A stretch of 64,000 nt of DNA from Escherichia coli. Its GTDB lineage: Bacteria; Pseudomonadota; Gammaproteobacteria; Enterobacterales; Enterobacteriaceae. Positions 38,201-41,200 of this stretch are shown in pieces. The stretch lies in the NCBI RefSeq assembly GCF_016026235.1, contig NZ_CP065613.1; one strand, written 5' to 3'. Position 1 is the stretch's first letter, and the number at the start of each line of letters is the position of its first letter. The position numbers were made by a program.

Positions 38201-41200
38201 GGGCGGCATTGCGGTGCTCAATACCGGGCACCTGCATCCGAAAGTGGTTGCGGCAGTGGAAGCGCAGTTGAAAAAACTGTCGCACACCTGCTTCCAGGTG
38301 CTGGCCTACGAGCCGTATCTGGAGCTGTGCGAGATTATGAATCAGAAGGTGCCAGGCGATTTCGCCAAGAAAACGCTGCTGGTTACGACCGGTTCCGAAG
38401 CGGTGGAAAACGCGGTGAAAATCGCCCGCGCCGCCACCAAACGTAGCGGAACTATCGCCTTTAGCGGCGCGTACCACGGGCGCACGCATTACACGCTGGC
38501 GCTGACCGGCAAGGTGAATCCGTACTCTGCGGGCATGGGGCTGATGCCTGGGCACGTTTATCGCGCGCTTTATCCTTGCCCGCTGCACGGCATCAGTGAA
38601 GATGACGCTATCGCTAGCATTCACCGAATTTTTAAAAATGACGCTGCGCCGGAAGATATCGCCGCCATCGTGATTGAGCCGGTTCAGGGCGAAGGCGGTT
38701 TCTACGCCGCGACGCCTGCTTTTATGCAGCGTTTACGCACGCTGTGTGACGAGCACGGGATCATGCTGATTGCCGATGAAGTGCAGAGCGGCGCAGGGCG
38801 TACCGGCACGCTGTTTGCGATGGAGCAAATGGGCGTGGCGCCGGATCTCACCACGTTTGCGAAATCGATCGCAGGCGGTTTCCCGCTGGCGGGCGTCACC
38901 GGGCGCGCGGAAGTGATGGATGCCGTCGCTCCAGGCGGGCTGGGCGGCACCTATGCCGGTAATCCGATTGCCTGCGTGGCGGCGCTGGAAGTGTTGAAGG
39001 TGTTCGAGCAGGAAAATCTGCTGCAGAAAGCCAACGATCTGGGGCAGAAGCTGAAAGACGGATTGCTGGCGATCGCCGAAAAACACACGGAGATCGGCGA
39101 CGTACGCGGTCTGGGGGCGATGATCGCCATCGAGCTGTTTGAAGATGGCGATCACAGCAAACCGGACGCAAAACTCACCGCCGAGATCGTGGCGCGCGCC
39201 CGCGATAAGGGCCTGATTCTTCTCTCCTGCGGCCCGTATTACAACGTGCTGCGCATCCTTGTACCGCTCACCATTGAAGACGCTCAGATCCGTCAGGGTC
39301 TGGAGATCATCGGCCAGTGTTTTGCTGAGGCGAAGCAGTAGCACCGCCCCCATGCCGGAGGCGACGCTGCGCGTCTTGTCCGGCCTACGAGAGTGTAGGT
39401 CGGATAAGGCGTTAACGCCGCATCCGACAATCGGCGCACCATGCCGGAGGCGACGCTGCGCGTCTTGTCCGGCCTACGAGAGTGTAGGTTGGATAAGGCG
39501 TTAACGCCGCATCCGACATTCGGCGCACCATGCCGGAGGCGACGCTTACGCGTCTTGTCCGGCCTACGGAAATGTAGGTCGGATAAGGCGTTTGCGCCGC
39601 ATCCGACAATCGGCGCACCCATGCCGGAGGCGACGCTGCGCGTCTTGTCCGGCCTACGGGGATCCAGGTCGGATAAGGCGTTTACGCCGCATCCGACAAT
39701 CTGTACGTGAACAGGAATAAATCTATGTCGGCCGGATAAGGCGGAGCCGCTCTCCGGCAAAAAGAATCAATAACAATTAAACGCGTGACCCGACGCGGGA
39801 AATGTCGGGGCGCTCTCCCAAGTGACACACTTTCGAGAGGATTCAGGATGGGGCAATCATCGCAACCACATGAGTTAGGCGGCGGGCTGAAATCACGCCA
39901 CGTCACCATGTTGTCTATTGCCGGTGTTATCGGCGCAAGTCTGTTTGTCGGTTCCAGCGTCGCCATCGCCGAAGCGGGCCCGGCGGTATTACTGGCCTAT
40001 CTGTTCGCCGGGCTACTGGTGGTTATGATTATGCGGATGTTGGCGGAAATGGCGGTTGCCACGCCCGATACCGGTTCGTTTTCCACCTATGCCGATAAAG
40101 CTATTGGTCGTTGGGCGGGTTATACCATCGGCTGGTTGTACTGGTGGTTTTGGGTACTGGTTATCCCGCTGGAAGCCAACATCGCCGCCATGATCCTGCA
40201 CTCGTGGGTTCCAGGCATTCCCATCTGGTTATTTTCCCTCGTCATTACCCTTGCCTTAACTGGCAGTAATTTATTAAGCGTTAAAAACTACGGCGAATTT
40301 GAGTTCTGGCTGGCGCTGTGCAAAGTCATCGCTATCCTGGCCTTTATTTTCCTTGGTGCAGTCGCAATTAGCGGTTTTTACCCGTATGCCGACGTGAGCG
40401 GGATCTCAAGATTGTGGGATAGCGGCGGCTTTATGCCCAACGGCTTCGGTGCGGTATTAAGCGCGATGTTGATCACCATGTTCTCGTTTATGGGCGCAGA
40501 AATTGTCACCATTGCCGCCGCGGAATCCGACACGCCGGAAAAACATATTGTCCGCGCCACCAACTCGGTTATCTGGCGTATTTCTATCTTCTATTTATGT
40601 TCTATTTTTGTCGTCGTGGCATTAATTCCGTGGAATATGCCCGGACTAAAAGCCGTCGGTTCTTATCGCTCGGTACTGGAATTGCTCAATATTCCCCATG
40701 CGAAATTGATCATGGACTGCGTGATATTACTTTCCGTAACCAGTTGCCTGAACTCGGCTCTGTATACCGCTTCCAGGATGCTCTACTCCTTAAGCCGTCG
40801 CGGAGATGCGCCTGCGGTAATGGGTAAAATCAACCGCAGTAAAACCCCGTACGTGGCGGTGTTACTCTCCACCGGCGCGGCATTCTTAACGGTGGTGGTG
40901 AACTATTACGCGCCTGCGAAGGTATTTAAATTTCTGATCGACAGCTCCGGCGCTATCGCCCTGCTGGTTTATTTAGTCATCGCCGTTTCACAGTTGCGGA
41001 TGCGCAAAATTCTGCGAGCAGAAGGAAGCGAAATTCGCTTGCGAATGTGGCTTTATCCTTGGCTCACCTGGCTGGTCATCGGCTTTATTACCTTTGTGTT
41101 GGTAGTGATGCTATTCCGTCCGGCGCAACAGTTAGAAGTGATCTCCACCGGCTTATTAGCGATAGGGATTATCTGTACCGTGCCAATTATGGCTCGCTGG

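What the first reader, a model, noticed from the sequence alone, without database searches (positions are those of the whole stretch)
39353..39758. Four tandem ~90-bp BIME/REP units between gabT and gabP
The gabT-gabP gap carries four nearly identical tandem units, each containing REP palindromes, plus a terminal partial REP. The spurious ORFs in the track here are repeat artefacts. Copy number of such arrays varies between strains and can affect mRNA stability or act as transcriptional barriers within the gab operon.
Basis: seen in the sequence. Interest (0 to 1): 0.2.

Follow-up and report, generated by a model that had tools for sequence, protein, structure and literature searches.

The report
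REP/BIME-2 hairpin array between gabT and gabP
The gap between the E. coli GABA genes gabT and gabP holds four tandem copies of an ordinary, well-known bacterial palindromic repeat (a BIME-2 type REP array); this strain carries an unusually long version of a copy-number-variable locus, but nothing about it is new.

Summary
Window 39353-39698 holds four tandem units of 89-91 bp. Each unit is a Y-type REP and a Z2-type REP in inverse orientation. A ninth, atypical REP hairpin lies at 39727-39759. All of it sits in the 506-bp gabT-gabP gap of an E. coli chromosome. The architecture is that of a BIME-2 array, the same as the studied REP325 array. Three Z2-linker-Y segments pass Rfam's naRNA4 gathering score.

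Copy number is polymorphic in 5,426 complete E. coli genomes. Most have one unit, as K-12 does. Alleles with 1.5, 2, 3 and 4 units also occur. At least seven genomes have four units, in five different unit orders. None among the 60 best-ranked records is longer. In 24% of genomes the array is replaced by unrelated sequence.

The ORFs across the array have no support. No promoter-like site and no sense-strand intrinsic terminator was found in the gap.

The most likely function, inferred from the class, is an intercistronic hairpin block. It would protect upstream gabDT mRNA and attenuate read-through into gabP. K-12 RNA-seq counts drop about 9-fold from gabT to gabP, which fits this.

Verdict: already known, low interest.

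The parts
38061..39341 (+). gabT (4-aminobutyrate--2-oxoglutarate transaminase), stop codon TAG at 39339-39341
   Evidence: NCBIfam NF005985 equivalog, 910 bits; RefSeq annotation of the identical sequence
39353..39388 (+). Unit 1, Y-type REP (iREP orientation, ends in CTAC). It starts 11 nt after the gabT stop codon.
   Evidence: hairpin of -20.3 kcal/mol with internal mismatches; 86.5% identical to the REP325 Y REP
39395..39429 (+). Unit 1, Z2-type REP (begins with GTAG), 6 nt after the Y REP (tail-to-tail linker GAGAGT)
   Evidence: -18.8 kcal/mol; 91.4% identical to the REP325 Z2 REP
39442..39477 (+). Unit 2, Y-type REP, after the 12-nt head-to-head linker ATCGGCGCACCA
39484..39518 (+). 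Unit 2, Z2-type REP
   Evidence: -16.7 kcal/mol
39531..39567 (+). Unit 3, Y-type REP (loop TTAC, 37 nt)
   Evidence: -21.5 kcal/mol
39574..39608 (+). Unit 3, Z2-type REP
39622..39657 (+). Unit 4, Y-type REP. This unit is the one shared with K-12.
39664..39698 (+). Unit 4, Z2-type REP with CCAG in place of GTAG, as in K-12
39699..39726 (+). Unique 28-nt spacer
39727..39759 (+). Terminal atypical REP hairpin (GTCG instead of GTAG), in the same orientation as the Z2 REPs. It is the recombination partner that gives the 63-64-bp deletion alleles.
   Evidence: (family D2)
39398..39654 (+). Three Z2-linker-Y segments (39398-39474, 39487-39564, 39577-39654) that match Rfam naRNA4 (RF02564) above its gathering score
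   Evidence: 71.8, 71.6 and 67.4 bits against a gathering score of 59.5
39760..39847 (+). 88-nt non-repeated leader before the gabP ATG. Most of it is kept even in genomes where the array is replaced.
39848..41248 (+). gabP (GABA permease)
   Evidence: NCBIfam NF007566 equivalog, 1062 bits

Best explanation
This is a BIME-2-type array of repetitive extragenic palindromes. Four tandem Y/Z2 REP pairs plus one atypical REP give nine hairpins, lying inside the csiD(glaH)-lhgO-gabDTP transcription unit between gabT and gabP of E. coli.

Shown here:
- the identity, anatomy and family relationship of the array;
- the sense orientation of the array relative to the operon;
- its polymorphism between strains.

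Inferred, as the most likely working:
- The array is transcribed with the operon.
- Its stable RNA hairpins (-16 to -21 kcal/mol each) block 3'-to-5' exonucleases and so stabilise the upstream gabD-gabT message.
- They also attenuate transcription into gabP, partly through Rho. GABA permease mRNA is therefore made at a fraction of the enzyme mRNAs.
- A nine-hairpin allele should do this more strongly than the three-hairpin K-12 allele.

The array grows and shrinks by recombination between its own units. Possibly the REP-associated transposase TnpA(REP) helps, which would make the locus a hypervariable minisatellite.

My confidence in the identity is about 0.97. My confidence in the stated function at this locus is about 0.5.
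For: Anatomy:
- Tandem array.
- Two REP types per unit in inverse orientation, with 6-nt and 12-13-nt linkers.
- Same layout and same sense-strand orientation as REP325 of K-12, the yjdM-yjdN array of six Z2-l-Y units; PMC4550694.
- Rfam naRNA4 hits above the gathering score.
- Consensus two-hairpin fold, with compensatory changes at two stem positions across loci.

Class definition. BIME-2 means y plus z2 REPs with short linkers in multiple tandem copies, the copy number varying between strains: PMC3333891.

Polymorphism. Length classes are shown. The mosaic unit orders are shown.

No alternative signal in the gap. There is no sigma-70-like promoter and no + strand intrinsic terminator, so gabP must be read through the array.

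Function of the class:
- REP325 stabilises the upstream yjdM mRNA.
- REP325 lowers the downstream yjdN about 8-10-fold.
- REP325 is partly Rho-dependent, and only as a long array.
- REP-separated tandem gene pairs show a raised upstream/downstream expression ratio.
- Source for these four points: bioRxiv 10.64898/2026.03.23.713779.

Locus-specific hint. In that preprint's K-12 RNA-seq tables the mean normalised counts are gabD 648, gabT 795 and gabP 90. That is a drop of about 9-fold across this gap.
Against: - No experiment or transcript data for this strain or allele was available.
- The K-12 count drop is correlative. It could reflect intrinsic instability of the gabP mRNA or other features.
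- It also reports that fragments of 2-4 hairpins showed no Rho dependence.
- A sigma-S or other non-consensus promoter for gabP in the gap cannot be excluded by the simple scan.
- 24% of E. coli genomes lack the array altogether, so it is dispensable.
Confidence: 0.65

Rival explanations
1. The array is a neutral, selfish minisatellite. It would be only a by-product of REP proliferation and unequal recombination, and the difference between one and four units would have no physiological consequence.
For: - Alleles are extremely mosaic, with five different unit orders among the four-unit alleles.
- Deletion alleles arise from REP-REP recombination.
- The whole array is replaced in 1,304 of 5,426 genomes.
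- Four-unit alleles are rare.
- REP effects are reported as context-dependent.
Against: - REP325, with the same architecture, has measurable effects on both neighbouring genes.
- Palindromes are kept by compensatory changes.
- K-12 shows a 9-fold drop in counts across the gap.
Confidence: 0.3
2. The array acts mainly at the DNA level, as a preferred DNA gyrase binding and cleavage site. [quoted passage not shown]
For: Gyrase cleavage sites are over-represented in BIME-2 elements, mostly in y-type REPs, and persist when transcription is inhibited (PMC6379681). This array has four y-type REPs.
Against: - Only a subset of BIME-2 elements are cleaved.
- The supplement of that study does not mention gabT or gabP.
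- The y REPs here deviate from the canonical y sequence (86.5% identity).
- This role does not exclude the RNA-level role.
Confidence: 0.15
3. The first REP, 11 nt after the gabT stop codon, stalls terminating ribosomes and lowers GabT synthesis. This is the mechanism of Liang, Rudd and Deutscher (2015), in which REPs within 15 nt of a stop codon down-regulate translation.
For: The distance was measured as 11 nt to the REP and 12 nt to the stem. The rule is as summarised in PMC12306157. The distance is the same in K-12.
Against: - The original paper could not be read here.
- The effect depends only on the first hairpin, so it would not explain the tandem expansion.
- It was not tested for gabT.
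Confidence: 0.2
4. The units encode naRNA4-like small RNAs that bind HU and condense the nucleoid.
For: Three Rfam naRNA4 matches lie above the gathering score on the transcribed strand. This is the model of PMC4550694.
Against: - The Rfam family is in effect a BIME-2 unit model, so a match shows sequence kinship only.
- The 2026 preprint, which includes authors from the original laboratory, finds no measurable effect on nucleoid compaction when REP325 is deleted, or when REP325 or naRNA4 is over-expressed.
Confidence: 0.04
5. The ORFs that cross the array encode proteins. These are 39293-39760 on the - strand (155 aa) and 39441-39710 on the + strand (89 aa), among others.
For: The ORFs exist mechanically.
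Against: - No Pfam match reaches significance.
- PGAP annotates no gene there.
- The unit length varies between 89 and 91 bp, so the reading frame is not kept between units or alleles.
- The region is absent from a quarter of genomes.
Confidence: 0.01

Closest known systems
BIME-2 family of bacterial interspersed mosaic elements (E. coli REP clusters; Bachellier, Gilson and Hofnung nomenclature as given in Ton-Hoang et al. 2012, PMC3333891)
   Same: - Y and Z2 REPs alternate in inverse orientation.
- The linkers are short.
- The copies are tandem.
- The location is extragenic.
- The copy number at the locus differs between strains.
   Different: - The REPs here are locus-specific variants: GCCGGAGG...GTCCGGC instead of GCCTGATG...ATCAGGC, and GTCGGAT...ATCCGAC instead of GCCGGAT...ATCCGGC.
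- The tail-to-tail linker is only 6 nt.
- The array ends with an extra atypical REP in the same orientation as the Z2 REPs, which is an 'atypical BIME' trait.
REP325 / naRNA1-6 array between yjdM and yjdN of E. coli K-12 (Rfam RF02564 naRNA4)
   Same: - The Z2-linker-Y unit is the same, 84.7% identical over 83 nt.
- The orientation relative to transcription is the same.
- The position is the same, between two co-oriented genes of one operon.
- Both are tandem arrays.
   Different: - It has four units of 89-91 bp rather than six of 100 bp.
- The spacers differ.
- The neighbouring genes differ.
- There are no experimental data for the gab array.
malE-malF and hisJ-hisQ intercistronic REPs (classical examples of REP-mediated upstream mRNA stabilisation; from my own knowledge, Newbury, Higgins and co-workers, 1987)
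   Same: REP hairpins lie between genes of one operon and accompany higher expression of the upstream gene.
   Different: Those clusters hold two or three REPs and are not known for copy-number expansion. No direct comparison was made here.

Membership tests
E. coli REP (palindromic unit) | Imperfect palindrome of 30-40 nt with an internal mismatch or bulge | tested here: met
   Nine palindromes of 33-37 nt. Each folds to a stem-loop with internal unpaired bases, at -16.3 to -21.5 kcal/mol.
E. coli REP (palindromic unit) | Conserved GTAG tetranucleotide 5' of the stem foot (CTAC on the other strand) | tested here: met
   Present in 7 of 9: four Y REPs (CTAC on the + strand) and three Z2 REPs (GTAG). 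Z2 of unit 4 has CCAG and the terminal REP has GTCG.
E. coli REP (palindromic unit) | Extragenic location and dispersal in many copies through the genome | tested here: met
   The array lies wholly between gabT and gabP. A further Z2-Y pair lies at window 53726-53809. The 907-bp query finds a median of 4 places per E. coli genome.
BIME-2 | Composed of y and z2 REPs in alternating, inverse orientation | tested here: met
   The Y REP is 86.5% identical and the Z2 REP 91.4% identical to those of REP325, which the literature classes as Y/Z2 (PMC4550694). Orientation alternates.
BIME-2 | Short linkers of the named S, s, l or r motifs | tested here: inconclusive
   The linkers are short (6 nt and 12-13 nt). 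Their assignment to the named linker motifs could not be made, because the consensus motifs were not available as text.
BIME-2 | Multiple tandem copies, with copy number variable between strains | tested here: met
   There are four copies here. Other complete genomes have 0.5 to 4 copies.
BIME-1 (RIP/RIB) | A single y-z1 pair separated by a long L linker that carries an IHF site | tested here: not met
   The IHF consensus WATCAANNNNTTR does not occur anywhere in 39342-39847. The linkers are 6-13 nt and the element is tandem.
Rfam RF02564 naRNA4 | Covariance-model score at or above the gathering threshold (59.5 bits) | tested here: met
   71.8, 71.6 and 67.4 bits on the + strand.
Rfam RF02564 naRNA4 | A discrete HU-binding RNA product | not testable with these tools
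   This needs Northern blots or RNA-seq and HU binding assays.
Intrinsic (Rho-independent) terminator | G+C-rich hairpin followed directly by a run of U on the transcribed strand | tested here: not met
   The scan finds none on the + strand in 39200-39950. The terminal REP is followed by AAAAAG.
CRISPR array | Identical repeats separated by unique spacers of similar length | tested here: not met
   The whole 89-91-bp unit repeats, linkers included. There are no unique spacers.
Gyrase-cleaved BIME-2 | In vivo gyrase cleavage within y REPs | not testable with these tools
   Only class-level data exist (PMC6379681). The locus is not mentioned in that study's supplements.

The most novel reading that the evidence does not exclude
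Array length at this locus works as a strain-specific dial. The nine-hairpin allele would pass the length at which REP arrays become Rho-dependent attenuators. In REP325 this is seen only for the full array, not for fragments of 2-4 hairpins. The longer array would then lower GABA permease relative to the GabD and GabT enzymes much more than the K-12 allele does. The repeated, independent origin of four-unit alleles would reflect selection, or TnpA(REP)-driven amplification, rather than drift.
Probability: 0.2. Interest if true: 0.35.

Novelty: already known. Interest (0 to 1): 0.12.

Why it matters
It matters little beyond annotation. It shows that the ORFs called across the gap should be ignored, and that the gabT-gabP spacer is a REP minisatellite whose length differs between E. 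coli lineages. The locus could serve as a natural allelic series (0, 0.5, 1, 1.5, 2, 3 and 4 units, in public genomes). With it one could test whether REP array length tunes the ratio of an upstream enzyme to a downstream transporter. That idea was raised recently for REP325.

Tried and rejected
- BIME-1 / IHF site: no IHF consensus in the gap.
- Intrinsic terminator or internal sigma-70 promoter in the gap: none on the sense strand.
- Protein-coding reading of the four ORFs across the array: no Pfam support and none annotated by PGAP.
- REP features in the MG1655 record: none are listed in the copy held here.
- Locus-specific literature: no paper in the library treats the gabT-gabP REP cluster.
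- Liang et al. 2015: not held, so it is cited second-hand through PMC12306157.
- Gyrase Topo-seq supplements: gabT and gabP are not mentioned.
- Search of the REP325 preprint supplements by K-12 coordinates for a Rho-binding entry at this REP: nothing found.
- Exact census of unit number over all 5,426 genomes: not possible, because only 60 rows are listed per search. The counts of 3- and 4-unit alleles are therefore lower bounds taken from the best-ranked rows. The shares of the common classes are estimated from an evenly spaced sample.
- Rfam scan of the replacement allele: only chance-level microRNA matches.

Full report
**What is in the sequence**

The stretch 39342-39847 is the 506-bp gap between two co-oriented genes. 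NCBIfam equivalog models identify them as gabT (38061-39341) and gabP (39848-41248). Upstream lie lhgO and gabD, and csiR lies downstream. RefSeq annotation of an identical sequence gives the same names.

The window is E. coli chromosome. It is 99.9% identical over 22 kb to strain FDAARGOS_943 and about 97.6-98% identical to the other records listed.

Tandem Repeats Finder reports a single array at 39350-39701, with period 90, 3.9 copies, 92% matches and score 588. The repeat finder gives four 89-nt copies in register. Gapped pairwise identities are 84-98%, and units 1 and 2 differ at two positions.

**Anatomy**

Each unit has four parts, in this order:
- a 36-37-nt palindrome ending in CTAC (TGCCGGAGGCGACGC-loop-GCGTCTTGTCCGGCCTAC);
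- a 6-nt linker;
- a 35-nt palindrome beginning with GTAG (GTAGGTCGGATAAGGCG-loop-CGCCGCATCCGACA);
- a 12-13-nt linker.

After the fourth unit come a unique 28-nt spacer and a ninth palindrome at 39727-39759. This last one has the same orientation as the GTAG-type palindromes. It reads GTCG instead of GTAG and has a diverged 3' arm. It is a complete hairpin, so 'partial' is not quite right.

Folded alone as RNA, the nine hairpins have energies of -16.3 to -21.5 kcal/mol and keep internal mismatches. The whole array folds far better than shuffled versions, with a z-score of -9.7.

REP motif searches give 11 and 8 matches in the window, against 0.22 and 0.13 expected. All matches lie here except one pair at 53.7 kb.

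**Family**

According to Ton-Hoang et al. (PMC3333891), E. coli REPs are imperfect palindromes of 30-40 nt with a conserved GTAG at the foot. They come in y, z1 and z2 types. BIME-2 elements are y plus z2 pairs with short linkers, present as multiple tandem copies whose number varies between strains.

I fetched the model BIME-2 array REP325 from K-12. It consists of six Z2-linker-Y units (PMC4550694). Comparison with the gab array gives:
- The gab Z2-like REP is 91.4% identical to the REP325 Z2.
- The gab Y-like REP is 86.5% identical to the REP325 Y.
- The whole Z2-linker-Y segment is 84.7% identical.
- The orientation relative to the direction of transcription is the same.

Rfam's naRNA4 model, built on that unit, matches three times on the sense strand above its gathering score: 71.8, 71.6 and 67.4 bits against 59.5.

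An alignment of units from this locus, from REP325 and from the 53.7-kb pair gives the expected two-hairpin consensus. Both-sided compensatory changes occur at one position in each stem.

No IHF consensus occurs in the gap, so this is not a BIME-1. There are no unique spacers, so it is not CRISPR-like.

**Variation between strains**

A 907-bp query (the array plus 200 bp of each flank) matched 5,425 of 5,426 complete E. coli genomes. The flank-to-flank span falls into these classes:

| Span (bp) | Content | Frequency |
|---|---|---|
| 907-910 | four units | at least 7 records; two are identical to the window |
| 816-819 | three units | at least 26 records |
| 726-732 | two units | at least 5 records among the 60 best rows |
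| 664 | 1.5 units (a two-unit allele with the 63-64-bp deletion described below) | at least 16 records among the 60 best rows |
| 637-639 | one unit, the K-12 state | about 70% of an evenly spaced sample |
| 574 | 0.5 unit (a one-unit allele with the same deletion) | 1 of 39 chromosomal rows in the evenly spaced sample |
| 711 | array replaced by unrelated sequence | see next paragraph |

Nothing longer than four units appears among the 60 best-ranked records.

Reading representative alleles shows three things:
- The 574 and 664 classes are 63-64-bp deletions between a Z2 REP and the terminal REP.
- The five four-unit alleles examined have five different unit orders, so expansion and reshuffling have happened repeatedly.
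- In the 711 class the whole array and the terminal REP are replaced by about 240 bp of unrelated sequence. That allele is present in 1,304 genomes, or 24%.

This window carries the longest class seen.

**The ORFs**

Four ORFs of 68-155 aa cross the array. None has a significant Pfam match. PGAP annotates nothing there on the identical sequence. Units of 89, 90 or 91 bp cannot preserve a reading frame. The ORFs are artefacts of the repeat.

**How it most likely works**

The simple scans find no sigma-70-like promoter and no sense-strand intrinsic terminator in the gap. The terminal REP is followed by A residues, not U. Unless an unrecognised promoter exists, gabP is therefore reached by transcription through the array, and the array RNA is part of the operon message.

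For the same architecture at yjdM-yjdN, a 2026 preprint (10.64898/2026.03.23.713779) reports the following:
- Deleting REP325 raises the downstream gene about 8-10-fold.
- Deleting it lowers the upstream mRNA.
- The array yields a ladder of hairpin-ended transcripts.
- Attenuation is partly Rho-dependent, but only for the full-length array and not for fragments of 2-4 hairpins.

In the DESeq2 tables of that preprint, the K-12 mean normalised counts are:

| Gene | Mean normalised count |
|---|---|
| glaH | 86 |
| lhgD | 277 |
| gabD | 648 |
| gabT | 795 |
| gabP | 90 |

These values amount to a drop of about 9-fold across this very gap, in the one-unit allele. This agrees with an attenuator/stabiliser role but does not prove it.

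I therefore take the RNA-level role as the best explanation: protection of the gabDT message and limited read-through into gabP. A nine-hairpin allele is expected to act more strongly than the K-12 allele. These steps are inferred from the class, not shown for this locus.

**Other roles**

These are not mutually exclusive with the RNA-level role.
- BIME-2 elements are preferred gyrase cleavage sites, mainly in y REPs, independently of transcription (PMC6379681). The locus is not mentioned in that study's supplements.
- The first REP starts 11 nt after the gabT stop codon. That is within the 15-nt range in which REPs were reported to stall terminating ribosomes and reduce translation (Liang et al. 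2015, as summarised in PMC12306157). I could not read the original paper.
- The HU/naRNA nucleoid-condensation model (PMC4550694) is now contested by work that includes authors from the original laboratory.
- The array may simply be a neutral minisatellite. The mosaic alleles and the replacement allele fit that view.

**Verdict**

The element belongs to one of the longest-known repeat families of E. coli, so this is an already known kind of feature. Copy-number variation of BIME-2 arrays between strains is itself documented (PMC3333891).

The only particular point is that this strain has a rare four-unit allele of a locus that has one unit in K-12. Interest is low.

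Noticed in passing
L005:301-545 (E. coli A31, the gabT-gabP gap); corresponds to window 39342-39775: In 1,304 of 5,426 complete E. coli genomes the whole BIME array plus the terminal REP is replaced by about 240 bp of unrelated sequence. It holds a large GC-rich palindrome with GGGAGAGGG/CCCTCTCCC motifs. A core of 40-65 bp recurs at a median of 3 places per genome, so it is another small dispersed repeat. It may be the 'boxC' type; that is from memory and untested. Rfam has no family for it.
   Followed up: partly
L006 and L007 (flank-to-flank span classes 664 and 574 bp); window 39664-39743: Some strains carry 63-64-bp deletions whose ends lie in the Z2 REP and in the terminal atypical REP. 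These are direct repeats of about 19 nt spaced 63 nt apart. The result is a hybrid REP, evidence of REP-REP recombination at this locus.
   Followed up: partly
window 53726-53809: A second BIME (one Z2-Y pair; Rfam naRNA4, 73.5 bits) lies directly after the proX stop codon. About 24 nt further on the sequence begins TGATCTTACCCAGC... In the near-identical genome FDAARGOS_943 an IS3 transposase gene is annotated at this position, so an IS appears to sit next to the REP pair.
   Followed up: partly
window 39760-39847: Most of the 88 nt upstream of the gabP start codon is conserved in every allele, including the replacement allele (from CAATTAAACGCG onward). It contains a small hairpin (CGCGTGACCCGACGCG, 39782-39797). 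This could be a gabP leader or regulatory element.
   Followed up: no
window 39042-39341 versus 39848-40147: The last 300 nt of gabT are only 95.7% identical to K-12, while the first 300 nt of gabP are 98.7% identical. Over 22 kb the window matches only FDAARGOS_943 at 99% or more. The strain belongs to a sparsely sampled lineage, and the gabT end may be a recombination boundary.
   Followed up: no
window 61664-61735 (+) and 31088-31163 (-): The MicA sRNA (Rfam, 83.9 bits) and a tRNA with anticodon CAU were found. RefSeq annotates the tRNA as tRNA-Ile in the matching genome, while ARAGORN calls it Met.
   Followed up: no
K-12 data from the supplement of bioRxiv 10.64898/2026.03.23.713779: Mean normalised RNA-seq counts along the operon in MG1655 are glaH 86, lhgD 277, gabD 648, gabT 795 and gabP 90. 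The sharp fall is exactly across the REP-containing gap.
   Followed up: partly
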